DNA from: Nannocystis bainbridge
GTDB taxonomy: Bacteria > Myxococcota_A > Polyangia > Nannocystales > Nannocystaceae
Assembly: GCF_028368995.1 (NCBI RefSeq)
Contig: NZ_JAQNDL010000004.1
Coordinates: forward strand, 480,001-544,000
DNA length: 64,000 nt
Direction of reading: 5' to 3'
The translations under genes were made by a program, and so were the position numbers. Below are positions 22,961 through 58,936 of the stretch, piece after piece (position 1 is the stretch's first letter; each line of letters opens with the position of its first letter). The notes beneath the pieces were generated by a model that had not been told where the DNA came from, ran no database searches, and saw only the letters and a list, made by a program, of their open reading frames with translations.

Positions 22961-24919
22961 TCACGCAGGCTCGTGGAGCGGCAGACGGATGACGACGGCG
23001 GCGCCGCCGAGCTCGCTGTCCTCGACCCGGACCTCGCCGTTGTGGTCGAGCACGACCTTCTTGACGATCGCAAGGCCGAGGCCGGTGCCCTCCTTGCGGG
23101 TCGACTCGTAGGGCTCGAAGACCCGCTCGCGCCGCTCGATCTCGATGCCGGGGCCGTTGTCGTCGACGCGCAGCTCGACGAACCCGGGCTCGCCCCGGGC
23201 CGGCCGCGCGGCCACCCGCACGTGCACGGGGCCGCGCTGCCGCTGCGACAGCACCGCGTTCTCGACCAGGTTGACCAGGCATTGCTTGAGCAGCTGGCGG
23301 TCGCCGAGGATGACGAGCGAGGCCGGGGCGGGCATGACCTCGAGGACATCGGCGTCGCGCTCGGTGAGGTGGCCGTAGGCGCGCTCGAACTCGCCGAGGA
23401 TCCGCGCGACCAGGGTCGGCTCGAGCTGGGCCTCGGGGACCTTGGCGAAGCGCGAGAAGCTGGTGACCATGCGCCGCAGCGACTCGATCTCGTCCTCGAC
23501 GATCTCGACCGAGGAGCGGAGCAGGCGCGAGAAGTTCTCGTCGGTGCCGGGGTCCTTCTCGCGCAGCTGCTGGGCGGCCAGCTGGATCGGGGTGAGCGGG
23601 TTCTTGATCTCGTGGGCGATCCGCCGCGCCATCTCCTGCCAGGCGCCGACCCGCTGCAGGTAGGACAGCTTGCGCTGGGCCGAGGCGAGCTCGTCGAGCA
23701 TGCCGTTGAAGGCGGCGCCGAGCTGGCCGAGCTCGTCGTTGCCGAGCTCGGGCACGCGCGCCAGCAGGTCGCCGCCGGCGACCCGCAGCATGGCGTCGCT
23801 GAGCATGCTGAGCTTGCGCGTGGTGGCCCGCGCGAGCAGGAAGCCGGCGATGAAGGCGACCATCAGCACGAGCGCGCTGGCGGCCCCGATCGCGCGGTAG
23901 ACGGCCCGCTCGAGCTCGCCGCGGTCGACGACGTTGCCGTCGACGGTGACGTAGTCGAGGCCGCGCTTGATCATGCCGAGCGACTGGTAGTCGCGGTCGA
24001 GCGCGGGGTCGAGGGCGAAGATGGCGGCGAGGCGATCCTGGTCGGTGGGACCTGTCGCTTTGAACATGTTCAAAGGGACAGGCCCGGACATGACCCAGAT
24101 CCGCGCGCCCTCGTCCTCGGGCAGCAGATCGCGCCGCTCGGCCAGGGCGTGGTGCGGGCCGTTGATCTCCAGCTCGACGAGGTCGGGCTCGCGGCGCAGC
24201 AGGGCGTGCAGCAGCTCGCGCGGGCCGGCGGGGTCGTCGGCGGTCAGCTCGCCGCGGGCGGCGGCCAGCTCGAGCTCGCGGGCCATGGCCTCGAGGCGGG
24301 CGCGGTAGGTCTCCTTGCGGGCCTTGACGTAGCCGTCGTAGAAGGGCAGCGAGAGGGCGACGGCGTCGTCGCTCTTCTGGGTGGCGGCGCCGACGATGCC
24401 CTCGAAGTACTGGACGGTGAGGGCGACGAGGTAGGCCGAGGCGCCGACGCAGAGGATGCCGAGGCAGACGAGCGCGGTGATCACCCGCGACTCGAGCCGA
24501 CCCCACCACGGCACACGCGGGGCGGCGACGATGCGCTGACCGATCCGCGTCATGCGGATCCGCGAGAGGTCGCTCGGGCGCGAGTCGGCGGCGCCGAAGC
24601 GGAAGAAAGAAGAAGTGCGGGCCCCGGCCTTGTCGGCGCGCGGGTGGACGCTGGACTCGGGGCGCGCGGCCGGGGTGACGGCGGAGGGCGGGCGCGCGGC
24701 GGTCCGGGCTCGCGGCCGCGAGGGCTCGCCGAGCCTGGGGCGCGGATCGAGGTCGTCGCGCGGGCCCGCGGGCAATTCGTCGGAGGCGGCCGGCGTGGTG
24801 CGCGAGCCGGATCGTCGCGGGAGGTCGTCGCGCGATCCGGCTTGATGCGTCGCGTCGCGCGCGCCGGGCGGGTTCACCGGGCGCGGGGCGTCGTCGTCGC
24901 TGGGGCCGCGCGCGCTCAT
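22961..24919 (-). CDS. HAMP-HisKA-HATPase sensor histidine kinase (NtrY-like)
   Basis: AWQEMARRIAHEIKNPLTPIQL H-box, NLVENA, DDNGPG, GTGLGL; two TM segments and HAMP. Confidence 0.93.
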   Translation of the reverse strand: MSARGPSDDDAPRPVNPPGARDATHQAGSRDDLPRRSGSRTTPAASDELPAGPRDDLDPRPRLGEPSRPRARTAARPPSAVTPAARPESSVHPRADKAGARTSSFFRFGAADSRPSDLSRIRMTRIGQRIVAAPRVPWWGRLESRVITALVCLGILCVGASAYLVALTVQYFEGIVGAATQKSDDAVALSLPFYDGYVKARKETYRARLEAMARELELAAARGELTADDPAGPRELLHALLRREPDLVELEINGPHHALAERRDLLPEDEGARIWVMSGPVPLNMFKATGPTDQDRLAAIFALDPALDRDYQSLGMIKRGLDYVTVDGNVVDRGELERAVYRAIGAASALVLMVAFIAGFLLARATTRKLSMLSDAMLRVAGGDLLARVPELGNDELGQLGAAFNGMLDELASAQRKLSYLQRVGAWQEMARRIAHEIKNPLTPIQLAAQQLREKDPGTDENFSRLLRSSVEIVEDEIESLRRMVTSFSRFAKVPEAQLEPTLVARILGEFERAYGHLTERDADVLEVMPAPASLVILGDRQLLKQCLVNLVENAVLSQRQRGPVHVRVAARPARGEPGFVELRVDDNGPGIEIERRERVFEPYESTRKEGTGLGLAIVKKVVLDHNGEVRVEDSELGGAAVVIRLPLHEPA

Positions 24920-27122: not shown

Positions 27123-27183
27123 CGGCCGCGAGTGTAACGCAAGGCGCGCCCGCGCCGCTCCGTTGTCCGCTAGACTGCGTCCC

Positions 27184-27567: not shown

Positions 27568-27668
27568 AGCCGAGCGGGTGCGCCTGGCCGAAGGGGCAGG
27601 TGCGCGGGGCGGCGGGTGAGGAGTCGGCCGAATCGGCGACCTGGCGGCGGTGAGCGGTCGCGCGAGGC

Positions 27669-27766
27669 TGTCCGAAGGGGCAGGTCCCAAGGGGAATGTC
27701 CGAAGGGGCAGGTCTGAAGGGGCAGGTCCCAAGGGGCATGTGCCAGGGGACATGCCCGAAGGGTCA
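27669..27766. repeat. array of 7 14-bp units ending on the glmU stop codon
   Basis: tgtccgaaggggca|ggtcccaaggggaa|tgtccgaaggggca|ggtctgaaggggca|ggtcccaaggggca|tgtgccaggggaca|tgcccgaagggtca. Confidence 0.9.
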
Positions 27767-28522
27767 GGCGGTGCGGGCGGCCAGGATCTCGGCGAGGGCG
27801 GCCAGCTGCTCGGGGGTGTTGACGCCGGCGACCTCGTCGGCGGGGACCTCCACGGTGAGGACGCCGCGCTCGGCGGCGCGGGCCACCAGGTCGGTGAGGT
27901 AGATCTCTCCCTGGGCGTTGGCCTGCCCGAGGCCCGGCAGCTCGCTGCGCAGCAGCTCGGCGCGGGCGCAGTAGACCCCGGCGTTGCACTCCCGGAGCGC
28001 GCGCGTGGCCGCGTCGGCGTCGCGCTCCTCGACGACGGCGTGGATCCGCCCGCGGTCGTCGCGGACGATCCGGCCGTAGCCGTGCGGGTCTTCGGGCGTG
28101 AAGGTGGCGAGCGCGAGACCGGCGCCGCTGGCTGCGCAGGCTTCGACGAGGCCGGCGAGGGTGGCCGGTCGCAGCAGCGGGACGTCGCCCGAGAGGATGA
28201 GCACCGGACCTTCGTGGTCGGCGATCGCGGGTAGTGCGCACTGTACCGCGTGCCCGGTGCCGAGCTGCTCGGCCTGCACGACGAAGCGGAGGTCGGTGAA
28301 CACGGGCCCGAGGGCCGCTTCCACCTGCTCGGCCCCGTGACCGACGACGACGACGAGGCGGGCGACGCCGGCCGCCCGGGCGCTGCGCAGGACGTGCACG
28401 GCCAGCGGCTCGCCGGCCAGCGGGTGCAGGACCTTGGGCAGGTCGGAGCGCATGCGGGTGCCCTTGCCCGCGGCGAGGACGACGGCGATCGGCGAAACGG
28501 CGGTGACGGGCTGCTGTGGCAC
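27764..28522 (-). CDS. glmU: GlmU-like N-acetylglucosamine-1-phosphate uridyltransferase domain only
   Basis: VLAAGKGTRMRSDLPKVLH, QLGTGHAV, GDVPLL, GYGRIVR, NAQGEIYLTD, GVNT; stops at 252 aa with no hexapeptide domain. Confidence 0.85.
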   Translation of the reverse strand: MPQQPVTAVSPIAVVLAAGKGTRMRSDLPKVLHPLAGEPLAVHVLRSARAAGVARLVVVVGHGAEQVEAALGPVFTDLRFVVQAEQLGTGHAVQCALPAIADHEGPVLILSGDVPLLRPATLAGLVEACAASGAGLALATFTPEDPHGYGRIVRDDRGRIHAVVEERDADAATRALRECNAGVYCARAELLRSELPGLGQANAQGEIYLTDLVARAAERGVLTVEVPADEVAGVNTPEQLAALAEILAARTA

Positions 28523-28746
28523 GCGCGGCGGACCTTAGCAAAATCGCCGGGCGCGGGTGTCCGGGCCGCCGTGCGCTGCGCAGGTGCGAGCTCGCTCGCG
28601 TAAGGCAAGGTGGGACGCGAGCGGCGGCCGTCGCTGCGCCGCCGGGGGGCCGCTCCGGGCCGCCAGGTTGCGCCGCAAGGTAGCCTGTGCGACCGTTGGT
28701 GTCGGTCCGCGCGCGTATCGGGATGGCACTCCGTCGCAACAGATTG

Positions 28747-31700
28747 ATGGGTTGGAGCTCCGCGTCGATCGCTGCGGCGGTGCTGGCGCTGGCGTGCGGT
28801 CCGGGCGTTCGCTCGGAGGCCGGGCCCGATCTGGCCAACCTGGCGGGCAAGAGCGGGGCCGACGAGCCGATCCGCCGCGAGCCGCCGATCTCGCTGACGG
28901 CCGCCGACGGGGCCGAGCTGCCGCTGCGGGTGCTGCGGGTGCGGGCGGTGCTCGATCAACCGCTGGCGTTCACGGAGCTCGAGCTGGCGTTCGACAACCC
29001 GGAGGGCCGCCCGCTGGCCGGCCGCCTGGCGCTGGCGATCCCGCCGGGCGCCCGCGTGACCCGGTTCGCGGCGTTCCGCGACGGGGCCTGGCAAGAGGCC
29101 GAGGTGGTGCCGCGGCGGACGGCGATCCAGGAGCTGGCGCTGAACCACGCGCCGCAAGAGCCGCAGCTGGTCGGGGCGCCGGAGGGCGAGCGCTTCGTGG
29201 CTCGCGTCGAGCCGATCGCGGCGCGGCAACAGACGCGGCTGATCGTGGCGTACACGCAGGAGATGCGCGGCCGCAGCGAGCCGTACCGGGTGCCGGTGGC
29301 CGGGCTGGCGCCGCTGCGCGAGCTGGCGGTGGCGCTGCGCTCGCGGGCGCCGCTGGTGATGGCCGGCGACCCACTGTTCGCGGGGGTCCGCGGCGACGGC
29401 GAGTTCTACCGGTTCGCCGACGTGCGTCCGACCGGCGACATCGTGGTCCAGCCGCACGGGCCGCGCGAGCTGGGGCTGCGCCACGACAACATGGTGGTGG
29501 CCCGGATCTCGCCGATCCCCCACGACCACCCGGATCCGGTCGAGAGCCTGGCGATCCTGTTCGACACCAGCGCCTCGCAGGCGCTCGGCTGGGACACCCA
29601 CGTCGACCGCCTGGGGCAGGTGATCGAGGAGCTGGTCGCGCGGGTCCCGAAGGACTTCCCGCTGCGGGTGGTGGCGTTCGACCAGGGCGCCGAGACGGCG
29701 TACGAGGGGACGATCCGCGGGTTCGGCGAGGCGGCGCTGGCGGCGATCCGCTCGCGGCGGCCGCTCGGCGCCTCGAACCTGCTGGGCGCGCTGCGCTTCG
29801 CGGCCCGCAGCGGCGAGCGACCGGCCCGGCGCATGCTGGTGATGACCGACGGGCTCATCACCGCCGGGGCGCACACCGAGGCGGCGCTGGTCGCCGAGGC
29901 CGAGCGGCTGCGCAAGGACGGGGTGGCCCGGCTCGACGTGATGCTCGAGGGCGGTGCGGCCGATCCGGCGCGGCTGCGCGGGCTGACGGCGCTGACGCAT
30001 TTGGGCGCGCAGCCGGAGACGCTCAAGGCGATGGGCCACGAGCTGGCGCCGTCGCGGCCGGGGCTGGTGCTGCGCAGCGGGGTGACGCCGCGGGTCGCGG
30101 CGCATCGGCTGACCCGCACGGTGGTGCGCGACGTCGAGGTGCGCGTGCCCGGCAGCGGCTGGGTCTACCCGCAGAAGCTCGAGAGCGTGCAGGCCGGCGA
30201 CGACGTGCTGGTCTACGCCGAGTACGCGGAGGACGAGCTCGAGGTCGAGCTGGTCGGGCACGAGGTCGCGGCGCGCCACGGCGTGGCGCTGACGCGCTCG
30301 CCGTCGCCGCTGCTGCAGGACGCGTGGGCGGGGGCCCGCGCGGCCTGGCTGATCGACCAGGCCCGCTCGTGCGCCCGCGGGCCCGACGACACCTGCGACA
30401 AGTTCCGCGAGCGCGCGGTCGAGTTCTCGCTGTCGAACCGGATCGTCAACGACGCCACGGCGATGGTGGTGATCGGCTCGGCCCACGACTACGCCCGCTT
30501 CGGCCTCGACGGCACCTCGCTGCGCGACGTGCTGACGGTCGGCAAGTTCGGGCCCGAGTGGCGCGAGGCGGCCCCGGTGCCGCTGCCCGACGAGCGGGCC
30601 GCGCCGCCGTCGCACGCGCTGCTGGCCGGGCTGCGCATGTCGAGCTTCGACGCCGCGCCGGCGCCGACCACCGCCGCGGCCCCGCCGGTGCCGCCGGTGC
30701 CTGTCCGATCGCGCAGGTCCGAACGGCAAGGTCCCAAGAGACCTGTCCGAGAGAACAGCCGACCCGACGCCGCCGCCGATCAGGCCGGCGAGGACGCGCG
30801 CGACCGCATGCGCGACAAGGACGCCGGGCTGCGCTTCGGGCCCCAGCGCACGCCGGCCGACGCCTACGAGGGCAACTTCCTGGCGGTGATGAACCTGCTC
30901 GGCGCGTGGGACGACAAGCGCAACGCGCTCGGGGTGGCGGAGCGGTGGCAGCGGGCGGCGCCGGCCGACGTGATGGCGCTGCTGGCCCTCGGCGAGGCGC
31001 TCGAGGCCAACGGCCGCGACGACCTGGCGGCCCGCGCCTACGGCTCGCTGATCGATCTGTACCCCGGCCGCGCCGACGTGCGGCGGACCGCGGCGGGCCG
31101 GCTCGAGCGGACCGGCGAGGGCGCGGGCGGGCTGGTCCTCGACGCCTACAGCCGCGCGGTCGAGCAGCGCTACGACGATCCGGCCGGCTATCGCCTGTAC
31201 GCCTACGCGCTGCTGCGGGCCGGCTACTTCGGCGAGGCGTGGGCGGCCCTGCTCGACGGCATGGCGTGGGCCCGCGTCGAGCCGAAGACCCGCGGGCTCG
31301 AGCGCGTGTTCAAGGACGATCTCGGCCTGGTCGCGGCGGCGTGGATCCGTCGCTGGCCCGACCAGCGCGACTACGTGATGGAGGCGCTGCGGGTGCAGGA
31401 GGCCGAGCTGGCCGAGCAGCCGTCGCTGCGGTTCGTGCTCAGCTGGGACGACGCGCAGAGCGACCTCGACCTGCACGTGCGCGACGGCCACGGCTGGCAC
31501 GCCTTCTACCGCGAGAAATCACTCGAGTCGGGCGGCCGCCTGCTCGACGACATGGACGCGGGCTACGGGCTCGAGGCGTTCGTGATCGACGGAACGGCCG
31601 CGGCCTACCCGTACCGGCTCGAGGTCGGCTACTACGGCCGGGGCTCCGACTACGGGGCGGGCAAGGTCCAGATCGTCGAGCACGACGGCGCGGGCCAGCT

Positions 31701-32736: not shown

Positions 32737-32738
32737 TG

Positions 32739-32973: not shown

Positions 32974-35900
32974 ATGTCGACCGCCACGGCCCATCCGCTT
33001 TCGTTCGACGCGCCGCCGCAGCCCGCGGCGCGCCCCGACGTGCGCGAGCGCCTGCAGGCGGCGCTGGAGCACGCGTCGCACTACTTGCCGGCCCAGGCGC
33101 CGCTCGAGGTGTTCGTCCACCACAACACGCTGCACGCGTTCCAGCACCTGCCGTTCCACGCGGCGATCCGCGAGGCCCAGACCAAGCTGCGGGTCCGCGG
33201 GTACCTGACCAAAGAGACATATCGTGAGTTGTTGGCGAGCGGACGGATCCGCGAGGACGACCTCGACGCGGTGCTGGCCGACGAGCGGTTCCCGGGCGAG
33301 CCGATCGCGCCCGGGTTCCCGAGCCGCGACGTCGCCGCGGCGCTGGTGATCCGCCACGGGGTCGGCGCCGAGACGATCGCCCACCTGCGCTGGAACCTGG
33401 TCGAGAAGGACGCGGCCAACCGGTTCGACGGCGACATCCGCCAGGGGCCGCGCGACGCGATCGTCCGCAGCACGCGGGCCTGGCTCGAGCAGGAGGTCGC
33501 GGCCGCCGGCGGGCCGGCGGGCGCGCGCGAGGTCGCGGCCAAGGTCGTGAGCCCGACGCCCGGCGAGCGCGCCCTCGATCCGCTGCGCAAGCTCGGCGCG
33601 CTGCTCGGCCGCCGCGTCGACCCACGCGACCTGATGGGGGCGTTCGCGTGCAACCCGGAGCTGTTCTCGGTGCGCGCGCTGTGGACCGCCTGCGTCCGCG
33701 CGTGCGAGCACCTCGAGGGCCAGCCGTGCCCGCAGGACACGCCGGCGGTGTTTCATCGCGACCTGCTGCTGCGCACCAGCGGCGAGGATCCGAACGACCT
33801 GGTCCACGCCCACCTGATCCCGCTGTGCGCGGCGTTCCTCGACCGCGGGCAGTCGTACTGGACGATGCCGGACCGCGAGCGCGGGTTCTTCCGCGCGTGG
33901 TCGAAGGTGCTGTCGTCGGGCCTCGGCGTGCGCCCGGCGTGGCTGGCGGGCCTCGGCGAGCGTCTGCGCGACTGGGACGCGCGCAAGCTCGGGGCCGAGG
34001 ACGTGGTGGTCGAGCTGCTGGCCGAGCTCGGGATCGCCGACGACGAGCTCGCGGCGTTCGTCGAGCACACGCTGCTGCAGCTGCCGGGGTGGGCGGGGAT
34101 GTTCCACCGGCTGGAGAGCGCGCCGGGGCCGATCGGTCGCACGCGCGCGCAGGTCCACTTGATCGACTACATGGCGGTGCGGCTGACGCTCGACCTGTTC
34201 GCGTACTGCGACGTCGGGGCGCGGCTCGGCCTGCGCGGCCAGGCCCGCGCGATCCGGGCGGCCTGCGCCGGGCTGCCGCAGATCTCGGGGCCGAAGCAGC
34301 GCGGCCGCCACGACACCTCGTGGCCGCTGTTCCGCCTGTGTCAGCTCGCGGGGGTGTCGGCGGCGACGATCTACGCGGCCAGCCGGGCCGACGTCGAGGC
34401 GGTGCTGGCGTTCCTCGACGAGCTCGACGAGCCGACCCGGCTGCGCGTGCTCCACGAGGCGTACGAGCGCCGCTACCGGGTCGAGCTGCTCGACGCGCTG
34501 GCGGCCAACCTGGCCGCGCCGCCGCCGGTGACGACGCGGCCGCGGCATCAGGTGGTGTTCTGCATCGACGATCGCTTCGAGTCGTCGCGCCGCCACCTCG
34601 AGGAGATCGCGCCCGAGTGCGAGACCCTCGGCGCGGCCGGGTTCTTCGGCCTGGCGATCGCGTACCAGGGCATCGACGATCCGAGCACGTTCCCGCTGTG
34701 CCCGGTGGTGGTCGAGCCGCAGCACCGGATCGAGGAGCAGGCGCTGACGCGGCAGTTCAGCATCGCCGAGCTGCGCGCGAGCCGGCGCCGCCAGCTGGGC
34801 GAGATCGAGACGGCGTGGGGCCGGATGTCGCGCTCGCTGCTGCTCGGCTCGATCGTCACCGCGGTCGCCGGGTTCTTCGCCGCGATCCCGCTGCTGGCGA
34901 GCGTGTTCTCGCCGCGCGCGGCCGGGCGGATGCGCAAGGCGATCGCGCGCTGGTGGCTGCCCGAGCCGATGACCCGGCTGACGGAGCTGCGCGCCGAGCA
35001 GGACGGGACGCGCACGGCGCAGGTGATGTCGGGCTTCACGCTCGACGAGATGGCGACCCGGGTGGCGTCGCTGCTCGAGAACATGGGGATCGTGCACCGG
35101 TTCGGGAAGCTGATCGTGGTGCTCGGCCACGACTCGTCGAGCGTCAACAACCCGTACTTCCCGGCCTACTCGTGCGGGGCGTGCGGCGGCCGCTCGGGCG
35201 GGCCCAACGCGCGGCTGTTCGCGCGCATGGCCAATCAGTCGGGGGTGCGCGAGCGACTGGCAGCGCGCGGGATCGAGGTGCCGGCCGACACGGTGTTCGT
35301 CGGCGGGCTCTACGACACCGCCAACGACATGATCCGCCTCTACGACGCCGAGGACCTGCCCGACGCGGCGCTGCTCGAGCTGCGGGTGCTGTCGCCGCAG
35401 CTCGAAGAGATGTGCCGCCGCAACGCGCACGAGCGCTGCCGCCGGTTCGCGGCGGCGCCGCGGCGGGCCTCGCCCGAGCGCGACCAGCGGCACGTCGAGG
35501 GCCGCGCGTTCGACCTGGCGCAGGCGCGCCCGGAGCTCGGCCACGCGACCAATGCGGCCTGCTTCGTCGGCCGGCGCCCGCTGACCGCGGGCCTGTTCCT
35601 CGACCGGCGGGCGTTCCTCGTCTCGTACGATCCGGAGCAAGATCCGAAGGGCGCGATCCTCGAGCGGATCTTGCTGGCCGTCGGCCCCGTCGGCGCCGGC
35701 ATCAACCTCGAGTATTTCTTCTCGACCGTCGACGCCGAGCGGCTCGGCGCCGGGACCAAGCTGCCGCACAACGTCACCGGCCTGTTCGGGGTCATGAACG
35801 GGGCCAGCAGCGACCTGCGGACCGGGCTGCCGCGGCAGATGACGGAGATCCACGAGCCGGTGCGGCTGCACCTGGTGGTCGAGGCGACGCCGGCGACGCT

Positions 35901-42919: not shown

Positions 42920-43003
42920 TGACCGCAGGCACATGTTTTAATGGACATGTTCCAGAGGACATGTCCTCGGCGGCATGTCGCGCGGGACATGCCGCTCAGG
43001 ACA
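42920..43003. repeat. array of 6 14-bp units
   Basis: tgaccgcaggcaca|tgttttaatggaca|tgttccagaggaca|tgtcctcggcggca|tgtcgcgcgggaca|tgccgctcaggaca. Confidence 0.9.
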
Positions 43004-43006
43004 GGC

Positions 43007-47250
<4,244 letters not shown>

Positions 47251-47613
47251 GGGGACGATACGGCAGTTGCCCGCGAGCGGCACGTGATCTGCGCGAGAAA
47301 AAGCCTGTGCGCTAGTGTTTCTGCGCAACGAACGGCAAGGCCGAGGTCCCTGGACCCCGACTTCGGCGCGATTCGCCCCTGAGGGCACAAAATCGCGCAG
47401 AACGCCGTTTATTGTGCGTTTCGTCCGCTCATGGTCCGCCCGCGAGGGGTTGGATCGCCGCCTCGGGGATCGGAGCATTTCCCGTTGCAATTCGGCACTT
47501 CGCCGGCGCGTGCCCCAGCCGCGCCCGGCCCTGAGCGACGCGACGCGAACGCCTCGCCCGGCACTACGCCGGTCGAGGCTCGCGCCACCGGACTCGTACC
47601 CCGCAGGACCCCC

Positions 47614-49164
<1,551 letters not shown>

Positions 49165-49174: not shown

Positions 49175-49258
49175 TGTACCTCGGGACATGTCCCTGGCGG
49201 CATGTCCCGAGCGACATGGGCTCGAGGGCATGTCGCTTGGAGCATGTCCTCGAGGACA
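49175..49258. repeat. array of 6 14-bp units
   Basis: tgtacctcgggaca|tgtccctggcggca|tgtcccgagcgaca|tgggctcgagggca|tgtcgcttggagca|tgtcctcgaggaca. Confidence 0.9.
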
Positions 49259-49303
49259 GGACACGGCCCGAGCGCCGCGGACCAGGCGCGGCTGTCCAGG
49301 GCC

Positions 49304-51216: not shown

Positions 51217-52281
51217 ATGCGCGAATGGGTGCTGTACGGCGCCAATGGTTACACCGGCGAGCTCATCGCCCGTCAGGCGGCCTCCGAGGGTCTGCGCCCG
51301 ATCCTGGCCGGCCGCGACGCGCCGGCGATCCGCCGGCTGGCCGGCGAACTCGGGCTCGAAGCGCGGGTGTTCGCCCTCGACGATCCGGAGGCCCTGCGCC
51401 GCGGGCTCGCAGGCGCCGCCCTGGTGCTGCACGCCGCCGGGCCGTTCTCGCGGACCAGCGCGCCGATGGTCGCGGCCTGCCTCGAGAGCGAAGTCCATTA
51501 CCTCGACATCACCGGTGAGATCCCCGTGTTCGAGGCCTGCAGGGCCCAGGACGCCCGCGCGCGCGAGCGCGGCGTGGTCCTGATGCCCGGCGTCGGCTTC
51601 GACGTGGTGCCCTCGGACTGCCTGGCCAAGGCGCTGGCCGAGGCCCTGCCGGAGGCGACGCGGCTCGAGCTGGCGATCCTGGCGCTCGGCGAGCTCAGCC
51701 GTGGCACCACCAAGACGATGATCGAGCACCTCGGCGCCGGCGGGGTGGTGCGCGAGGGCGGCCGCCTGGTCCCGATCGCCCCGGGCTCGCGCACCCGCAC
51801 CGTCCGCCTCGGCGGGCGCGAGCGCCTGGTGGTGGCGGTGCCGTGGGGCGATCTGGCGACCGCGTACGCGTCGACGGGGATCGAGAACATCACCACGTGG
51901 ATGAGCTTCCCGAAGGCGCAGATCCGCGGCATGCGGGCGCTCCGGCTGCTGGCGCCGCTGCTGCGCCTCCGGCCGGTGATCAAGGTGCTGCAGGCGCTGG
52001 TCGACCGCCGGGTCACCGGACCCGACGAGCAGGTCCGCGAGGCCGGCTCGAGCGAGATCTGGGGCCGCGTCGAGGCGCCCGACGGCCGGGCCGTGGAGGG
52101 CCGGGTGCGCACGCCCGAGGGCTACAAGTTCACGGTGATCGCGTCGCTGGCGAGCGTCCGTCGCATGCTCGAGGCGGCGCCGGCCGCCGGCTACCAGACG
52201 CCGGCGACGGCGTTCGGCAGCGGCTTCGTCGCCACGCTGCCGGGCTGCTCGCTGACGGTGCCCGAGACGGCTGGCGCTTAG
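51217..52281 (+). CDS. saccharopine dehydrogenase-like NAD(P)-binding oxidoreductase
   Basis: VLYGANGYTG, LAGR, HAAGPF, HYLDITGE, GFDVVPSD, GYQTPA. Confidence 0.92.
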   Translation: MREWVLYGANGYTGELIARQAASEGLRPILAGRDAPAIRRLAGELGLEARVFALDDPEALRRGLAGAALVLHAAGPFSRTSAPMVAACLESEVHYLDITGEIPVFEACRAQDARARERGVVLMPGVGFDVVPSDCLAKALAEALPEATRLELAILALGELSRGTTKTMIEHLGAGGVVREGGRLVPIAPGSRTRTVRLGGRERLVVAVPWGDLATAYASTGIENITTWMSFPKAQIRGMRALRLLAPLLRLRPVIKVLQALVDRRVTGPDEQVREAGSSEIWGRVEAPDGRAVEGRVRTPEGYKFTVIASLASVRRMLEAAPAAGYQTPATAFGSGFVATLPGCSLTVPETAGA

Positions 52282-52340
52282 GGCATGTTTGAACGGGCAT
52301 GTCCGAGCGGCCATGTCCGTTCGGGCATGTCCGAGCGCGG
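52272..52340. repeat. array of ~5 14-bp units spanning the stop codon
   Basis: tggcgcttagggca|tgtttgaacgggca|tgtccgagcggcca|tgtccgttcgggca|tgtccgagcg. Confidence 0.8.
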
Positions 52341-52344
52341 TGGG

Positions 52345-52863: not shown

Positions 52864-52909
52864 GGTGGCGAGGCTAGCGCGGCGACCCAGGTGGTGCACG
52901 TCGGGGCCG

Positions 52910-53680: not shown

Positions 53681-53693
53681 GGCGATTCTCCGG

Positions 53694-54452
53694 TCAGAGA
53701 GGAGCGACAGTGTAGAACACGTGAGACTGTAAGGCGCGCCGGACGAGGTTGTGCGCGGGGTCGCCGGGGCCGATGCGCACCGGGGTGCCGTCGCCCGGAT
53801 CGAGGGCGGCGAAGTCGATGCCGTCGAACAGCGCGGCGCCGCTGCCGTCGTCGCGCAGGCGCAGCTGGAGGCCGAGCGTCTCGGTGGTGCCCTCGTCGAT
53901 CTCGAGGTCGAACGGCGCGCCGACGACGGCGGCGCTGTCGTCGAGGTCGAGGATCGCGGTGAAGCCGAGCTCACGGCCGTCCTTGCGGGCGGTGCCGACG
54001 AACTGGGCGGTGTGACCGGCGAGCGGGTCCGCGGCCGGCAGCTCGTCGGCGCGGCGGAAGGCGATGTTGCAGCCGTGGTAGTTGCCGGTCAGCAGCTCGG
54101 CGCGCCCGAGCTCGTCGCCGTCGCCGGCGACCCAGTCGAGCACGAAGCTGCCCGGCAAGGCGCCGGTGACGTCGCCGCCGGCGTAGTGCCCGGGGTGGGC
54201 GATCGCGGGCGGGACGAGCAGATCCCACAGGCGGGCGAGGGCGTGCATCTCGCCCTGGATCGTGAACTCGAGGTCGCCAGCGGCGATACGCGCGGTGTCG
54301 AGGTGGATCGTCCAGCCGAGGTCGGTGGCGGCGTCGACGAGCCGGCCGGCGTCGACGGCGACGGCGAGCTCGACCCGGGTGGCCTCCTGGCTGGGGGCGC
54401 ACGCGGTGGCGAGACAGGTCGCAAGGGACAGGGCGGAGAGGACAGGTCGCAT
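53694..54452 (-). CDS. lipoprotein with AHPGH motif associated with TonB-dependent receptor
   Basis: Signal from ATG 54452 (LATAC); TDLGWTI; AIAHPGHYAGGDVTG. Confidence 0.78.
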   Translation of the reverse strand: MRPVLSALSLATCLATACAPSQEATRVELAVAVDAGRLVDAATDLGWTIHLDTARIAAGDLEFTIQGEMHALARLWDLLVPPAIAHPGHYAGGDVTGALPGSFVLDWVAGDGDELGRAELLTGNYHGCNIAFRRADELPAADPLAGHTAQFVGTARKDGRELGFTAILDLDDSAAVVGAPFDLEIDEGTTETLGLQLRLRDDGSGAALFDGIDFAALDPGDGTPVRIGPGDPAHNLVRRALQSHVFYTVAPL

Positions 54453-54512
54453 CGTGAGGCCCGAAGGACATGTCATGAGGGACAGGGCGTAAAGGACAGG
54501 TCGATGCATGTC
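54403..54512. repeat. 14-bp units within a duplicated signal-peptide start
   Basis: ggtcgcaagggaca|gggcggagaggaca and tgtcatgagggaca|gggcgtaaaggaca; translates as MHRPVLYALSLMTC followed by MRPVLSALSLATC. Confidence 0.8.
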
Positions 54513-54513
54513 G

Positions 54514-56571
54514 TCACAACCACAGGGTGGCGCCGATCCGGGCGGTCAGCGGCGGGCCGGCGAGGAAGTGGAGGACGGGGATGGTGCTGCGCGGCTCGCT
54601 GCGGTCCCACCACGAGGCGTAGTGGTACTCGCCCTCTTTCCAGCCGGCGTTGGTGACGTTGTCGATCTGGAGGTCGAGCTGCAACGGGCCGACACGGTAG
54701 CCGAGGCTGAGGTCGAGCAGGGCGTAAGCCGAGGTGCGGGCGCCGTGCGGGAGGGCGCGGCTGCCGACGACGAGGAAGCGAGCGCCGGCGCGGAACCCCG
54801 AGGGGTGGACGACGGTGAGGCCCGTGGCCGACATGAACGGCGGGGCGAGCGGGACCGGGGCGCCCGAGTCGACGAAGCGGGCCTGCACGAGGCTCAGGTC
54901 CTGGCGCAGCTGTAGCCACCGCCGCGGCCACACGGCGAGGTCGAAGTCGATGCCGAGCCGACGGGTGCGGTTGAGCTCGATGTTGACGGCGGACACGTGA
55001 TCGAAGACGAGCTCGCGCGCGATCCAGGTGCCGAACAGCGACAGGCCGGCGCTGACGAGTTCGCGGTGCTGGAAGCGGGCGCCGACCTCGACGCTGTCGG
55101 AGGCGATGATGCGCGCCGGGCCGCCGCGGTAGCGATCGAGCGCGGTGTCCTCGGGCACGGCGGCGCCGCCGAGCACGGCGCGGGCCTCGGGGGCCCGCAG
55201 GCCGCGGCCGTAGGCGAGGAAGAGGTGGGCGAACGGGGCCAGGCGGACGCTGGCGTTGATGCGCGGCGAGGGCAGGGCGAGGACCTTGCGGGCGCGACGC
55301 TCTGGGTCGATAAGGTCGCGGACGTTGTAGGCGACGAGGTCGAGGCGGGCGCCGGCCTCGAGGACGAAGCGATCGACGGGCCGCCAGCGCAGGCCGGCGC
55401 GCGCGTGGGCCTGGTGCTGGCCGGCGCCGAGGTCCCAGTTGCGGGTGACGACCTCGTGGTGGGCGTCGACGCGCACGTCGTGCTGGCGGAGGAGGTCGCC
55501 CTGCCAGGCGCCGCCGGCCAGCAGCTCGACGGTGCGGTGGAGCGGGCGCCGGTACTCGAGCTGATAGCCGAGGCTGGCGAAGCGGTGCCGCTGGTTGCGA
55601 CGATCGCCGGCGAGCGGATCGAGGAGGTAGCCGGTGAAGTCCTCGACGAGGTCGAGGGCGCGCAGCTGGCCGTGGAGGCGGTGCTCGAGCTTGCCGACGC
55701 CGAGGTCGAGCTGGTGACGCAGGGCGGTGAAGAGGCGGTCGGAGCGGCCGCCGCCGTCGTCGCGGTAGACGCCGGCGAATCCGACGCGACCGCTGGCGAC
55801 GTCGTCGGCGCGCACGGCCCCGGGGGCGTCGAAGCGGGCGACGTAGACGCCGGCGGTGAGGTCGAGGGCGCCGTGGGTCTTGCTGTCGAGCAGGCGGATC
55901 TGGCCGAGGAAGGTGGCGCGCCGGGCGGCCCTGGCGGCGGCGAAGCCCTTGTCGGTCATGGCCTCGACCGCGAAGAATGTCTCTTTGGACATGTTCTTCG
56001 GGGCATGTACGAACACGCCGCGGTGCCGCAGGGTGCTGCCGAACTCGTAGCCGACCCGGCTGCCGCGCGCTTCAGGCTCGACGCCGAGGTCGAAGCGGAT
56101 GGTGCCGGCGTTGGCGAAGTTGCCCTGGTCGAGCAGGAACGGGCCCTTGTTGGCGGTGACGCGGCGGACGACCTCGGGGATGACGAAGCCGAGGTCGACG
56201 TAGCCCTGGCCGTGGATGTTGGAGAGCTCGTTGACGGTGACGCCGGCGACCTTGACCTCGATGTCGGCGCCGTGGGCCGCGTCGAAGCCGCGCATGAACA
56301 TCTGCTGGCCCTTGCCCTCGGCGCCGTGCTGGATCAGGAGGACGCCGGGCACGAGCCGCAGGAGGTCGTCGGCGCTGCGCCGACGCGGACTGGCGGCGAT
56401 CTCGGCGGGACCGACGACCCGCTGCGACGCCGTTCGCGGGCTGCGGTCGCTGACGACGACGGTGGCGTATCGCCTGTCCTTGGGGACATCATGCGCCGCG
56501 GCGGCCGCAGGGGCGGCCAGGACGGCGAGGAGCGCAAAGGCGCGCAACAGGGGCTCGCTCGGTCGGCGCAC
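54514..56571 (-). CDS. TonB-dependent receptor
   Basis: Plug ADDLLRLVPG..QHGAEGKGQQMFMRGFDAAHG...HGQGYVDL..PE; C-terminal LDLQIDNVTN...GPPLTARIGATLWL. Confidence 0.92.
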   Translation of the reverse strand: MRRPSEPLLRAFALLAVLAAPAAAAAHDVPKDRRYATVVVSDRSPRTASQRVVGPAEIAASPRRRSADDLLRLVPGVLLIQHGAEGKGQQMFMRGFDAAHGADIEVKVAGVTVNELSNIHGQGYVDLGFVIPEVVRRVTANKGPFLLDQGNFANAGTIRFDLGVEPEARGSRVGYEFGSTLRHRGVFVHAPKNMSKETFFAVEAMTDKGFAAARAARRATFLGQIRLLDSKTHGALDLTAGVYVARFDAPGAVRADDVASGRVGFAGVYRDDGGGRSDRLFTALRHQLDLGVGKLEHRLHGQLRALDLVEDFTGYLLDPLAGDRRNQRHRFASLGYQLEYRRPLHRTVELLAGGAWQGDLLRQHDVRVDAHHEVVTRNWDLGAGQHQAHARAGLRWRPVDRFVLEAGARLDLVAYNVRDLIDPERRARKVLALPSPRINASVRLAPFAHLFLAYGRGLRAPEARAVLGGAAVPEDTALDRYRGGPARIIASDSVEVGARFQHRELVSAGLSLFGTWIARELVFDHVSAVNIELNRTRRLGIDFDLAVWPRRWLQLRQDLSLVQARFVDSGAPVPLAPPFMSATGLTVVHPSGFRAGARFLVVGSRALPHGARTSAYALLDLSLGYRVGPLQLDLQIDNVTNAGWKEGEYHYASWWDRSEPRSTIPVLHFLAGPPLTARIGATLWL

Positions 56572-56808
56572 GCGTCGGGCCAGGATACGCGAGGGGACGG
56601 GCGGCGGATCGGGCGAACGGGACGCGCGGCCGGAGGCTCGCAGGCGCGCGGGCGCTTGGGTCCGTCATTCGGAACTCGAGCGCGGTGCGTGGGCACGGTG
56701 CGGCGGACCGGGCGGCACGCTCGCGCACGCGAGCCATGGGAGGATGCGCGGTGAAGCGGGTGCACGAGCGCGGTCGCAGACGTGCCACGAGGAGCGGGCG
56801 AACAACGA

Positions 56809-56835
56809 GAGCACCCTCGCGGGGCGAGGGTGCTC
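56809..56835 (-). terminator. 12-bp perfect hairpin downstream of the HADH/crotonase gene
   Basis: gagcaccctcgc-ggg-gcgagggtgctc; weak U-tract on the minus strand. Confidence 0.5.
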
Positions 56836-56863
56836 GTGCGTGGACGCGGGGGCGCGCGCGGGC

Positions 56864-58936
56864 TCAGGCGAGCGGGTGCTCGAAGGCCGGCGGCTTGCCG
56901 CGGCTCATGGCGGTGACGCCGACCTTCGCGGCCGACTGGCACAGGCTGTCGGCCGCGCGCTGCTCCTCGAGGGCGCCGGCGGCGGCGACGTCGAGGGCGT
57001 TGGCGTCCGCGATCGTGCGGGCGAGGAGGTCGCGCAGCTGGGCGTCGAGCACGACCCCCTGCTCGTTGCGCGGATCGACGTCGCGGTCGACCTCGATCTC
57101 GGCGGGGCCGGTGCGGAACGGCGGGAGCGGAGCTGTCCCTCGGGCCAGGGCGAGGGCGAGCTCGCCGCTGGCGCGCGGCAGGTCGCGCACCGGGACGACG
57201 GCGCTGACGAGGCCGAGCTCCTGCGCGCGCGCGGCCGAGATGCTCTTGCCGGTCAGCAGCAGCTCGTTGAGGGCGGCGTAGTGCTCGGGGGCGCTGCTGC
57301 GGTGGAGCAGGTGGCAGCCGCCGAGGCCGGGGATGACGCCGACGGTCGGCTCGGGCTGGGCGATGACGGCGCCCTCGCCGGCGATGCGGGCGTGGCAGGA
57401 GCTGGCGAGCTCCATGCCGCCGCCGAGCGCGCGACCGACGATCGCGGCGACGGTCGGCTTGCCGGCGCGCAGCTTGGCGAGGGCGTGCTTCCAGCCCTGG
57501 ATCAGCGCGAGCGCGCCGTCCCGCTTGCCGAGCACGGGCACGAAGGCGCCGATGTCGGCGCCGTGGCCGAAATCGCGGTTGAAGAGGCCGTCAGGGGCGA
57601 CGACGATCGCCTCGACGGCCGGGTCGGCCTGGAGGGCGTCGACGGCCCGCCCGAGCTCGGCCAGCAAGGTGTGGCCGAGGGTCGAGCGCTTGAGCGAGAT
57701 CAGGCCGACGCCGCCGCTGACGCTGCGGCCGACGTAGATGCTGTCCCATCCGACATGTTCTCCGGGACCTGTCCGCGAGAACACGTCGAGCGGGGCGACC
57801 TCGTCGGCGCGGGTGATCTGCTGGTCGACGAGGAAGGCGCGGGTGAGCGCGGCGGCCTGCTCGAGGCCGAGCGCGGCGATCAGCGCGGGCGGGCCGTCGC
57901 GGAAGGCGAGGGCCTTCTCGGCCAGGTAGTTGAGGGCGTCGGCGCCGACGATCTTGTGGGCGAGCATGCGCGCGGTGAGGGCGAACAACATGCCGAACAT
58001 GCGCGCGCGGACGGTGGCGACGCCCTCGGGCGGGCACTTCTGGCCGCGCTCGTAGGGCCACTGCTTGCCGGGGTCGGCGATGTACGGCTTCCAGGCGTCG
58101 GGGATGGCGTAGAGGCTGCTGTCGACCTCCTCGCGCATGAGCTCCATGCAGTGGGCCGACAGGCTGTTGGCGCCGCGGATCAGGTTGTGGACGAAGAACG
58201 GCGAGGTGCCGAGCAGCTGCTTGCAGGCGTCGTCGATCTGCGCCGGGCTGAGGCCGGTGCTCTCGTGGATCCGCACGGCCTCGAGCATCATCCCGCAGAA
58301 CAGGCGGTCGGCGGCGAAGCTCGGCACGTCACCGACCGAGATCAGCGTCATGCCGGCGCGACCGAGGAAGGCCTTGATCTGCTTGAGCGTGGCGGCGCCG
58401 GTGACGGCGCCCTGCTCGGGCAGCTCCCACAACTTGTTGGTGAGGTGGGGGAAGAACGGGTGGAGGACGCCGCAGCGATCGGCGCCCGGCAGGCCGTCGA
58501 ACAGGTGACGGGTGGTGAAGCCGCTGGTGGCGGAGAAGATGAGGGCCTCGGGATCGCGGGCCCGGATGGCGGCGTAGAGCGGCTTCTTGATGGCGAGGCT
58601 CTCGGGCACGGCCTCGAACACGAGGCCGATCTTGAGCTCGGCGGGGATGTCGGCGATGCCGCCGCGGATCGGGATGATGGCCCGGGTGATGGCCTCGATC
58701 TCGGCCGGGGAGACGCGCGGGGCGAACTGCTCGGCGAGCTTGGCGGCGACCTGGTCGACGGCGGGCGAGAGGTCGAGGGCGATCACGGGCACGCCGTGGC
58801 GGGCGAGGATGCGCGCGAGCTGGCCCAGCTTGCCGAAACCGACGTTGCCGCAGCAGCCGGCGACGAGCAGGGCCCGCGGCGGACCCCCGTCGGGCTGAAA
58901 GATGGCTGCTACCGAGGGATCGCGCGCGTTTTCCAT
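56864..58936 (-). CDS. 3-hydroxyacyl-CoA dehydrogenase / enoyl-CoA hydratase fusion (HADH N-terminal, crotonase C-terminal)
   Basis: VFEAVPESLAIKK, SATSG, GVLHPFFP, DVPSFAADR; crotonase ALGGGMELA and QPEPTVGVIPGLGG. Confidence 0.9.
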   Translation of the reverse strand: MENARDPSVAAIFQPDGGPPRALLVAGCCGNVGFGKLGQLARILARHGVPVIALDLSPAVDQVAAKLAEQFAPRVSPAEIEAITRAIIPIRGGIADIPAELKIGLVFEAVPESLAIKKPLYAAIRARDPEALIFSATSGFTTRHLFDGLPGADRCGVLHPFFPHLTNKLWELPEQGAVTGAATLKQIKAFLGRAGMTLISVGDVPSFAADRLFCGMMLEAVRIHESTGLSPAQIDDACKQLLGTSPFFVHNLIRGANSLSAHCMELMREEVDSSLYAIPDAWKPYIADPGKQWPYERGQKCPPEGVATVRARMFGMLFALTARMLAHKIVGADALNYLAEKALAFRDGPPALIAALGLEQAAALTRAFLVDQQITRADEVAPLDVFSRTGPGEHVGWDSIYVGRSVSGGVGLISLKRSTLGHTLLAELGRAVDALQADPAVEAIVVAPDGLFNRDFGHGADIGAFVPVLGKRDGALALIQGWKHALAKLRAGKPTVAAIVGRALGGGMELASSCHARIAGEGAVIAQPEPTVGVIPGLGGCHLLHRSSAPEHYAALNELLLTGKSISAARAQELGLVSAVVPVRDLPRASGELALALARGTAPLPPFRTGPAEIEVDRDVDPRNEQGVVLDAQLRDLLARTIADANALDVAAAGALEEQRAADSLCQSAAKVGVTAMSRGKPPAFEHPLA

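What the first reader, a model, noticed from the sequence alone, without database searches (positions are those of the whole stretch)
24053..57783. The 14-bp motif arrays are embedded inside protein-coding genes, overriding codon bias
Seen: runs of 2-4 in-register units within ORFs. Examples: histidine kinase ~24053 (tgtcgctttgaaca|tgttcaaagggaca), VIT protein 30702-30757 (4 units), dabA ~33206 (one degenerate unit), STAND NTPase 42410, thiC 45562, TonB receptor 55978 and 56475, HADH fusion 57742-57783 (3 units), and also 3931-3958 and 12879-12906. These patches carry A/T-ending codons (aaa, aca, ttg, gga) that are otherwise rare in these genes. Inference: selection acts on the DNA sequence, keeping sites at regular density even through long genes, as known for DUS, HIP1 and matS.
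Basis: partly seen in the sequence, partly recalled or inferred. Interest (0 to 1): 0.75.

Follow-up and report, generated by a model that had tools for sequence, protein, structure and literature searches.

The report
Genus-wide palindromic DNA motif inside genes
A 14-base palindromic DNA unit that fills the gaps after genes in this myxobacterial genome (apparently Nannocystis) also sits about 2,500 times inside real genes, where its bases are kept even at silent, codon-unfriendly positions.

Summary
The unit TGTCC-N4-GGACA (junction GGACATGTCC) has 17 strict hits in the window against 0.08 expected. Six of them lie in Pfam-confirmed genes. Genome-wide, 695 strict sites lie inside 5,749 confident genes, against 16-29 after synonymous shuffling. 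Sites occur in all three frames. A/T-ending codons are 21.8% inside sites and 4.8% elsewhere.

Orthologue alignments show most patches arose in place by substitution, in linkers and tails. With sites defined in a third genome, arm bases at third codon positions diverge 2-4 times more slowly than background. The N4 spacer diverges faster.

"Regular density" is not supported. Gaps between clusters are over-dispersed (CV 1.22), and intragenic sites do not fill gaps.

Its intergenic arrays hug stop codons, with 9.8 units/kb in convergent spacers and 0.84 in divergent ones. No RAYT transposase was found, and there is no RNA-strand asymmetry.

Best reading: a highly iterated DNA palindrome recognised as DNA by an unidentified factor. 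A genome-wide directional pressure spreads it, and protein-coding cost limits it. It resembles uptake sequences and HIP1 and sits where REP elements sit. It is a new variant of a known kind.

The parts
3931..3958 (.). Two-unit patch (9/10 and 9/10) inside the TPR-protein gene 3470-4477 (+)
   Evidence: The arms are kept in G005, G001 and G003.
12879..12906 (.). Two-unit patch (8/10 and 10/10) inside the DUF3829 gene 12363-13355 (-)
24053..24080 (.). Two-unit patch in the histidine kinase 22961-24919 (-), residues about 280-289, between the sensor and the HAMP domain. In this genome it is a near-perfect 32-nt palindrome.
   Evidence: It aligns without a gap to two of the five outgroups, and the other three have deletions there. 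The spacers differ in all four close genomes.
30702..30757 (.). Four-unit patch (8, 7, 7, 9 of 10) in a Pro/Ala-rich linker of the VIT-domain protein 28780-31827 (+)
33206..33219 (.). A single degenerate unit (8/10) in DabA 32974-36126 (+). It may be chance.
42396..42428 (.). Units near the 5' end of the predicted TPR/STAND-like ORF 39597-42509 (-). The coding status here is uncertain.
45562..45575 (.). Perfect unit in the C-terminal tail of ThiC 45427-47121 (-), residues 516-520, after the end of the Pfam domain at residue 505. It lies within a 27-42 nt insertion relative to more distant relatives.
55978..56005 (.). Two units (9/10 and 8/10) in the TonB-dependent receptor 54514-56571 (-), residues 189-198, formed in place. 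An Ala-to-Ser change specific to this genome improves the motif.
56475..56488 (.). Perfect unit in the same receptor, residues 28-33, before the plug domain
57742..57783 (.). Three units (9, 8, 9 of 10) in the linker between the 3HCDH and ECH domains of gene 56864-58936 (-), residues 384-398. There is no indel in 9 of the 10 orthologues aligned, including some at about 70% identity that lack the motif.
12261..12356 (.). Intergenic array of the direct-repeat type, after the stop of gene 12363-13355. It does not fold.
17956..18043 (.). Intergenic array between convergent genes
27655..27780 (.). Intergenic array between convergent genes. It folds into a long hairpin (z -6.1).
42920..43007 (.). 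Intergenic array directly after the stop of gene 43007-45430 (-)
49175..49262 (.). Intergenic array between convergent genes. It folds into one long hairpin, -68.6 kcal/mol, z -7.1.
52272..52341 (.). Intergenic array between convergent genes. It folds into a long hairpin (z -6.8).
54413..54504 (.). Array after the stop of the TonB receptor gene. It reaches into the predicted 5' end of gene 53694-54452.
63766..63816 (.). Two perfect units after the stop of gene 62573-63661 (+)

Best explanation
The patches are the intragenic members of a genus-specific family of highly iterated 14-bp palindromic units, TGTCC-N4-GGACA. Neighbouring units join as GGACATGTCC. The genome holds about 6,200 units at 9/10 or better.

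Shown:
- Most units form head-to-tail arrays just after stop codons, above all between convergent genes.
- About 2,500 units lie inside real ORFs.
- These mostly arose in place by substitution, in less conserved linkers and tails, and rarely by indel.
- They occur in every frame, but most often in the frame that uses the common codons GTC and GAC.
- Once present, the ten arm bases change 2-4 times more slowly than synonymous background, even where they force rare A/T-ending codons. The 4-nt spacer changes faster, often several bases at once.
- Variant patterns are the same on both strands.

Inferred:
- The unit is read as DNA, either as a duplex palindrome or as a hairpin on either strand, by a sequence-specific factor still unidentified.
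- A genome-wide directional pressure from that factor pushes any tolerant sequence towards the motif. The pressure could be selection for binding sites, or a molecular drive such as biased uptake and recombination or biased repair.
- Protein and codon cost limits where the motif survives.
- The arrays after stop codons probably also act as two-way hairpin terminators.
- Fast, clustered spacer change fits template switching within palindromes.
For: Excess over chance.
- Perfect units number 792 in coding and 1,195 in non-coding sequence. The reversed word gives 2 and 1.
- 695 strict sites lie inside genes, against 16-29 after synonymous shuffling.

DNA-level constraint.
- Arm bases also diverge less than local flanks: 5.4-8.2% against 16.5-19.8%.
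- Changes away from the consensus occur at 8.2% of positions, against 14.2% at reversed-word control sites, p 9e-7.

Origin in place.
- The HADH, TonB 55978 and HK patches align codon for codon with orthologues of 56-75% identity that lack the motif.
- 234 intragenic units have synteny in G005. Of these, 180 are kept at 9/10 or better, 24 are 8/10, 20 are 7/10 or worse, 9 have gaps and 1 is unaligned.

Cost avoidance.
- The frame bias is 402, 229 and 64.
- Density falls from 0.437 to 0.121 arrays/kb from the lowest to the highest codon-score quartile.
- Flanking codon positions 1 and 2 are less conserved than background.

Lineage-wide build-up. GGACATGTCC occurs 640-956 times in the six closest genomes, 43-206 times in five other genomes of the genus, and at most 28 times in 30 genomes of other genera. 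The tandem form is found in 78 stretches among 185,579 species. 75 of the 78 are in Nannocystis, Nannocystaceae or Myxococcales records.

Strand symmetry. Wobble-keeping and mirror variants number 283 and 353 inside genes, and 224 and 190 in 3' regions.

Association with 3' ends.

Spacer change. Changes per site are over-dispersed: 125, 51, 29, 8 and 0 sites with 0-4 changes, against a binomial 108, 80, 22, 2.7 and 0.1.
Against: - No binding factor, methylation, uptake bias or termination was observed. All of these are inferred.
- Conservation does not separate selection from drive.
- The test for change towards the consensus is only suggestive: 31 of 536 non-consensus positions against 6 of 214 in the control, p 0.096.
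- Positions 4 and 11 covary within a unit (odds ratio 4.0). That fits a hairpin as well as a duplex site.
- Intergenic sites that could be aligned show arms no better conserved than background. Few could be aligned (7-14), and arrays shift register.
- Some intragenic patches do coincide with insertions: ThiC and 9 of 234 units.
- The gene calls are my own codon-score caller, checked by Pfam only for the window's genes.
- The codon-score quartile trend is partly circular.
Confidence: 0.55

Rival explanations
1. Each site is selected individually for chromosome or nucleoid organisation, in the manner of HIP1 or matS. A structuring protein needs sites spread along the chromosome, so sites are kept inside genes where no spacer is available.
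For: Arm bases are conserved at synonymous positions inside ORFs. 180 of 234 intragenic units are retained at about 10% DNA divergence. The abstract of PMC5861425 argues from the same kind of conservation for HIP1.
Against: Spacing is over-dispersed, not regular (CV 1.22). Intragenic sites do not fill gaps (p 0.47). They clump in certain genes (71 against 12.5 expected). Density is 8-fold higher in spacers and 12-fold higher in convergent than in divergent spacers, which follows gene ends and not distance. Long-range periodicity was not tested.
Confidence: 0.15
2. A REP/BIME-like or MITE-like mobile repeat inserts copies, and the intragenic patches are in-frame insertions that were tolerated, as in Rickettsia palindromic elements.
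For: The units are palindromic and form arrays after stop codons and between convergent genes. Intergenic arrays turn over by indels: 44 with gaps and 64 unaligned of 212. The ThiC patch lies in a 27-42 nt insertion relative to more distant relatives.
Against: No Y1/RAYT transposase (PF01797) was found in this genome, which is 90.5% complete. The same search found it in 6 of 14 control genomes. Most intragenic patches align without indels to orthologues that lack the motif. About 40% of units are intragenic. The units are not part of a longer dispersed element. Arm bases are conserved, not decaying.
Confidence: 0.1
3. The functional form is an RNA hairpin, serving as a terminator, an RNase barrier or a binding site for an RNA-binding protein. 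Intragenic copies would tune mRNA decay or pausing.
For: Arrays lie right after stop codons. Arrays fold strongly, with z from -4.7 to -7.1 for 5 of 8 intergenic arrays folded. Positions 4 and 11 covary. Spacer arrangement adds 1.6-2.2 kcal/mol in non-coding arrays of 3 or more units.
Against: G-U-keeping variants are not preferred on the sense strand: 283 against 353 inside genes, and 224 against 190 in 3' regions. Direct-repeat arrays do not fold (z -0.4). Spacers of adjacent units in coding arrays are not complementary: 15 perfect pairs against 18 expected. No Rfam family matches. No usable RNA data were found.
Confidence: 0.1
4. There is no DNA-level feature. The pattern would come from a peptide motif, from base composition or from mis-called genes.
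For: The amino-acid sequence carries part of the signal: synonymous shuffles give 16-29 sites, against 3-10 for codon-order shuffles.
Against: The motif is read in three frames as three different peptides. The same unit occurs in spacers. The period is 14 nt, which is not a multiple of three. The reversed-word control gives 3 hits against 1,987. The genes are confirmed by Pfam, and the flanks diverge with a 3-periodic pattern.
Confidence: 0.01

Closest known systems
DNA uptake sequences (USS of Pasteurellaceae, DUS of Neisseriaceae)
   Same: Thousands of copies of a short, clade-specific motif. A third to two thirds of the copies lie in ORFs. The reading frame follows preferred codons, and copies sit at poorly conserved residues (abstract and header table of PMC2817400). 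Here the frame bias is 402, 229 and 64, and the flanks are less conserved. From recall, not checked in a call: uptake sequences also occur as inverted pairs in terminators.
   Different: This unit is palindromic and forms head-to-tail arrays with a 14-nt period, up to 9 units long. It is 8-fold denser in spacers. No uptake bias or competence link was tested. No such system is known to me in Myxococcota (recall).
HIP1 (GCGATCGC) and other highly iterated palindromes of cyanobacteria
   Same: A hyper-abundant palindrome, found within and between ORFs, and conserved beyond expectation at orthologous positions. Its function is unknown, and selection is set against biased repair (abstract of PMC5861425; listing of PMC4390886).
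   Different: HIP1 is an 8-mer without arrays. Here the unit is 14 bp with a free 4-nt spacer, forms tandem arrays and is strongly associated with 3' ends. Intergenic copies are not positionally conserved here. Neither a methyltransferase link nor long-range periodicity was tested.
REP/BIME elements with RAYT transposases
   Same: Short palindromic units clustered after genes and between convergent genes, able to form hairpins.
   Different: REPs are extragenic by definition (recall), whereas about 40% of these units are inside ORFs. No Y1/RAYT gene was found. The unit is much shorter than the 20-40 nt I recall for REPs.
Rickettsia palindromic elements (in-frame insertions in genes)
   Same: Palindromic repeats that end up inside ORFs without destroying them (recall).
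   Different: RPEs are insertions of about 100-150 bp (recall). Here most patches replace existing codons one for one.
matS/MatP
   Same: A short palindrome bound as duplex DNA (recall).
   Different: matS has a few dozen copies confined to the terminus region (recall). This motif has thousands of copies on all five contigs.

Membership tests
REP/BIME (RAYT-associated) | Extragenic location | tested here: not met
   2,569 of 6,245 units at 9/10 or better lie in called genes. Six window sites lie in Pfam-confirmed genes.
REP/BIME (RAYT-associated) | A cognate Y1 (RAYT) transposase in the genome | tested here: not met
   PF01797 gave 0 matches in this genome (90.5% complete). The same search found it in 6 of 14 control genomes.
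REP/BIME (RAYT-associated) | Palindromic units clustered at 3' ends and between convergent genes | tested here: met
   Density is 9.84 units/kb in convergent, 3.05 in tandem and 0.84 in divergent spacers. 27.9% of genes have an array within 100 nt after the stop, against 8.0% before the start.
DNA uptake sequences (USS/DUS) | A clade-specific short motif in hundreds to thousands of copies | tested here: met
DNA uptake sequences (USS/DUS) | Intragenic copies in frames that use preferred codons, at poorly conserved positions | tested here: met
   The frames are 402, 229 and 64. Flanking codon positions 1 and 2 diverge 7.6-9.3% against 4.4-6.6% background. There is no trend with whole-gene conservation.
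DNA uptake sequences (USS/DUS) | Preferential uptake of motif-bearing DNA by competent cells | not testable with these tools
   This needs a transformation or uptake assay.
DNA uptake sequences (USS/DUS) | An asymmetric, oriented motif occurring singly or as inverted pairs | tested here: not met
   The unit is its own reverse complement and forms head-to-tail arrays with a 14-nt period.
Highly iterated palindromes (HIP1-like) | A palindrome over-represented many-fold | tested here: met
   GGACATGTCC occurs 956 times, against 1 for its reversed word. Perfect units number 1,987 against 3.
Highly iterated palindromes (HIP1-like) | Sites conserved at orthologous positions within ORFs beyond the synonymous background | tested here: met
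Highly iterated palindromes (HIP1-like) | Sites conserved between ORFs | tested here: inconclusive
   Only 7-14 intergenic sites could be aligned. Their arms were at about background. Half of the intergenic units show gaps or cannot be aligned.
Highly iterated palindromes (HIP1-like) | A link to an orphan DNA methyltransferase, and long-range periodicity | not tested
   No methylome was available. Periodicity was not computed, because the genome is in 5 contigs.
matS/MatP | A few dozen sites confined to the terminus macrodomain | tested here: not met
   Density is 1.8-2.6 strict sites per 10 kb on every one of the 5 contigs.
In-frame palindromic insertions (RPE-like) | The patch is an insertion relative to orthologues | tested here: not met
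   The HADH patch has no indel in 9 of 10 orthologues. TonB 55978 aligns without a gap to all 4 outgroups, and the HK patch to 2 of 5. 9 of 234 units have gaps against G005. ThiC is an exception.

The most novel reading that the evidence does not exclude
The genus, apparently Nannocystis, has a sequence-specific DNA-recognition system not yet described. It could be uptake-signal-like, repair-linked or nucleoid-binding. Its 14-bp palindromic site has been driven to about 6,000 copies per genome. The site rewrites tolerant stretches of proteins codon by codon, and its arrays serve as the genus's standard two-way terminator. This would be the first system of the USS/HIP type in Myxococcota, and the first built from periodic arrays.
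Probability: 0.3. Interest if true: 0.8.

Novelty: new variant of a known kind. Interest (0 to 1): 0.62.

Why it matters
It offers a third, independent case beside uptake sequences and HIP1 in which a short DNA word shapes protein-coding sequence. The case lies in a different phylum and has a different architecture.

The relatives form a graded series, from roughly 9-24 copies per Mb in the other genomes of the genus (43-206 copies each) to about 50-90 per Mb in the closest six. That makes the build-up traceable step by step. It also makes the old question of selection against molecular drive testable.

On the practical side, the arrays are likely terminators and recombination-prone repeats. 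That matters for annotating and engineering these myxobacteria, which are rich in natural products.

Tried and rejected
- **RNA evidence.** Only 8 metagenome runs hold small shares (0.06-0.10) of the words, and they are kept as contigs. They cannot show RNA ends, so no reads were laid.
- **Rfam.** Only two tRNAs and the TPP riboswitch were found. Nothing matched the arrays.
- **U-tract terminators.** The scan found 6 terminator-like sites against 2.7 expected, and only one overlapped the edge of an array.
- **Complementary spacers in adjacent units.** There is no excess in coding arrays (15 against 18.3 expected) and a small excess in non-coding arrays (65 against 29.6).
- **Strain-specific genes.** 48 genes not aligned to G005 carry 12 units (0.245/kb), against 0.32/kb in shared genes, p 0.43. 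This is uninformative.
- **Whole-gene conservation.** There is no trend with array density (Spearman 0.02).
- **Longer dispersed element.** The 46-, 67- and 88-nt tandem repeats of the window are local only.
- **G009 and G011 synteny.** Their stretches were not collinear with the window beyond the HADH gene, so they were used only gene by gene.
- **First conservation count.** It defined sites in this genome itself, which censors this lineage's losses. I replaced it with ascertainment in a third genome.
- **Literature.**
  - 'Nannocystis, repeat, genome' gave 67 papers, of which 20 were listed. None was on this motif by title or abstract.
  - 'GGACATGTCC' gave 47 papers, of which 15 were listed, all on p53 or eukaryotic topics.
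  - 'myxobacteria' with 'repetitive extragenic palindromic' gave 1 unrelated paper.
  - The library omits most subscription journals, and supplements were not seen.

Full report
**What is there**

The window is G000:C4:480001-544000 of an 11.05-Mb genome in 5 contigs, with about 72% G+C. The cited coordinates carry units of the form TGTCC-N4-GGACA, laid head to tail every 14 nt so that neighbouring units join as GGACATGTCC.

The degenerate pattern TGTYC-N4-GRACA has 17 hits in the window, against a mean of 0.08 in 100 shuffles. I called genes with a codon-score caller of my own. Pfam confirmed the cited genes:
- a histidine kinase;
- a VIT-domain protein;
- DabA;
- a TPR (STAND-like) protein;
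- ThiC;
- a TonB-dependent receptor;
- a 3-hydroxyacyl-CoA dehydrogenase/enoyl-CoA hydratase fusion.

Six of the 17 strict hits lie inside these and other called genes. The patches sit between or after domains. The HADH patch covers residues 384-398, between 3HCDH and ECH. The ThiC patch covers residues 516-520, after the domain ends at 505. The TonB patches cover residues 28-33, before the plug, and residues 189-198. The HK patch lies between the sensor and HAMP.

Two of the ten cited places are weak:
- The DabA unit is 8/10, a level at which the reversed-word control reaches 40% of the motif's coding count.
- The STAND-like site lies in a 5' stretch that does not diverge like coding sequence.

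**More than chance, and against codon bias**

Genome-wide there are 2,306 strict sites. They divide as 1,407 intergenic, 773 gene-interior, 70 within 90 nt of a start, 30 within 60 nt of a stop, and 26 on a boundary.

| Match level | Coding | Non-coding | Reversed word, coding | Reversed word, non-coding |
|---|---|---|---|---|
| Perfect (10/10) | 792 | 1,195 | 2 | 1 |
| 9/10 or better | 2,569 | 3,676 | 133 | 31 |

(All.)

They hold 695 interior strict sites, against 16-29 in ten synonymous shuffles and 3-10 in ten codon-order shuffles.

Sites occur in all three frames (402, 229 and 64). The commonest frame reads the arms as GTC and GAC. The rarest needs TGT and GGA. Codons inside sites end in A/T in 21.8% of 2,786 cases, against 4.8% of the background. 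ACA is about 90-fold enriched.

Runs are in register. Spacings of 14, 28 and 42 nt dominate, and 673 of 2,372 coding arrays have two or more units.

**How the patches got there**

I made codon alignments with orthologues from the five closest genomes and from more distant ones. The three-unit HADH patch replaces existing codons one for one. Orthologues at about 70% identity have the same length and no motif. One at 75% has a half-formed version. The five at 93-96% have the full patch.

The TonB 55978 patch and the HK patch are also in place. In TonB, this genome alone has an Ala-to-Ser change that turns TGGCC into TGTCC.

The ThiC patch is different. It lies in a 27-42 nt insertion that only the close clade has.

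234 intragenic units have synteny in G005. Of these, 180 are 9/10 or better there, 24 are 8/10, 20 are 7/10 or worse, 9 have gaps and 1 is unaligned. Turnover inside genes is therefore mostly by substitution. In spacers, half of the 212 units show gaps or cannot be aligned.

**Constraint on the DNA**

I fetched about 1.27 Mb of G005 and 0.87 Mb of G001. That gave 499,630 positions aligned three ways.

Defining sites in this genome itself censors this lineage's losses. I therefore defined sites in one genome and compared the other two.

For 42-43 strict intragenic sites:
- arm bases at third codon positions diverge 5.4-8.2%;
- background is 13.4-14.7%;
- local flanks are 16.5-19.8% (Fisher p 1e-3 to 3e-6);
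- spacer third positions diverge 30-35%.

For 148-155 sites at 9/10 or better:
- arm third positions with A/T diverge 7.0-14.6%, against 26.7-30.3% for other A/T third positions (p 4e-6 to 3e-10);
- those with G/C diverge 6.1-7.5%, against 12.8-13.9%.

The three permutations share data and are not independent.

Spacer changes are clustered. Sites with 0, 1, 2, 3 and 4 changes number 125, 51, 29, 8 and 0, against a binomial 108, 80, 22, 2.7 and 0.1. The HK patch shows this clearly. Its left spacer differs at 2-4 bases between all four close genomes, and in this genome it has become the exact complement of the right spacer.

At near-consensus sites, changes away from the consensus are rarer than at control words (8.2% against 14.2%, p 9e-7). 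Changes towards it are more frequent, but not significantly so (5.8% against 2.8%, p 0.096).

**What the family looks like as a whole**

- **Distribution among genomes.** The 10-mer occurs 640-956 times in the six closest genomes and 43-206 times in five other genomes of the same genus. It occurs 0-28 times in 30 genomes of other genera, and its reversed word 0-11 times. The tandem form occurs in 78 stretches among 185,579 species. 75 of them are in records titled Nannocystis, Nannocystaceae or Myxococcales, so the genus is most likely Nannocystis.
- **Position relative to genes.** Intergenic arrays follow gene ends. Density is 9.84 units/kb in convergent spacers (735 of 1,317 hold one), 3.05 in tandem spacers and 0.84 in divergent spacers. 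The median distance to a stop is 16 nt in convergent spacers. In tandem spacers it is 72 nt, against 196 nt to the next start. An array lies within 100 nt after the stop of 27.9% of genes, and before the start of 8.0%.
- **Folding.** Five of eight intergenic arrays fold into long hairpins with z between -4.7 and -7.1. Two do not fold (z -0.4 and -0.6), one of them a direct-repeat array. Spacer order adds a little stability in non-coding arrays, and less in coding ones.
- **Covariation.** Within a unit, positions 4 and 11 covary (odds ratio 4.0). Across the junction they do not.
- **Strand symmetry.** Variants that would keep G-U pairing in the sense RNA are not preferred: 283 against 353 inside genes, and 224 against 190 in 3' regions. 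This points to DNA, not RNA.
- **Mobile-element signs.** No Y1/RAYT transposase was found, no Rfam family matches, and there is no longer dispersed element.

**Spacing**

Gaps between 4,112 clusters have mean 2,638 nt, median 1,622 nt, CV 1.22 and maximum 44,349 nt. Intragenic arrays are no farther from the nearest non-coding array than random coding positions (p 0.47). They clump in some genes: 71 genes have four or more, against 12.5 expected. Density falls with codon-score quartile from 0.437 to 0.121 per kb (partly circular). The claim of regular density is not supported.

**Interpretation**

Shown:
- The family is real, genus-wide and strand-symmetric.
- It is under DNA-level constraint inside genes, including at bases that violate codon bias.
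- It is built mostly in place, in tolerant protein segments.

Inferred:
- A sequence-specific factor reads the unit as DNA.
- A genome-wide directional pressure, either selection for sites or a molecular drive, is balanced by protein and codon cost. This is what the abstract of PMC2817400 describes for uptake sequences.
- Arrays after stop codons probably also terminate transcription in both directions.
- Clustered spacer change fits template switching in palindromes. That mechanism is recalled from the literature and was not tested here.

Conservation cannot tell selection from drive. The abstract of PMC5861425 uses the same kind of evidence to favour selection for HIP1.

**Comparison and novelty**

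The family behaves like uptake sequences and HIP1 inside genes, and like REP elements in spacers. It fails defining features of each:
- it is palindromic and arrayed, unlike USS and DUS;
- it forms arrays and is tied to 3' ends, unlike HIP1;
- it is largely intragenic and lacks a RAYT, unlike REP;
- it is not an insertion, unlike RPE;
- it is not confined to the terminus, unlike matS.

My three literature searches found no description of it. The library is incomplete and supplements were closed. I rate it a new variant of a known kind.

Noticed in passing
window 47159-47251 (-): A TPP riboswitch (61.6 bits against a cut-off of 54.3) lies directly upstream of thiC. This supports the thiC start at 47121.
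   Followed up: partly
window 7544-7811: Three tandem copies of an 88-nt unit (83-94% identical) in a spacer. BLAST finds them nowhere else in the genome.
   Followed up: partly
window 4717-4909: A tandem repeat with a 67-nt period (2.7 copies) overlapping the 3' end of gene 4874-5563 (-). It is also local only.
   Followed up: partly
window 19694-19911: A tandem repeat with a 46-nt period. Each copy holds one motif unit plus 32 other bases, so whole composite blocks are duplicated locally.
   Followed up: partly
window 47916-48351: Repeats with a 96-nt period encoding Cys-rich modules (C..CGDG...CDDGN-like) in the secreted-protein gene 47614-49164 (+).
   Followed up: no
window 19948-22749 (-): A 933-aa ORF made largely of acidic 9-, 15- and 45-nt repeats (Asp/Glu/Leu/Pro-rich). 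No family search was done.
   Followed up: no
window 56809-56835 (-): A classical hairpin-plus-T-tract terminator after the HADH/ECH gene, without the motif. Motif-free terminators therefore also exist.
   Followed up: no
window 61238-61311 and 61364-61437 (+): Two tRNA genes (Rfam 69-74 bits). My gene caller placed ORFs over or near them, which shows its limits in spacers.
   Followed up: no
genome-wide (G000): Arrays of the direct-repeat type (GGTCG-N4-GGACA, as at 12261-12356) keep the 14-nt period but lose the palindrome. The period therefore survives without hairpin potential.
   Followed up: partly
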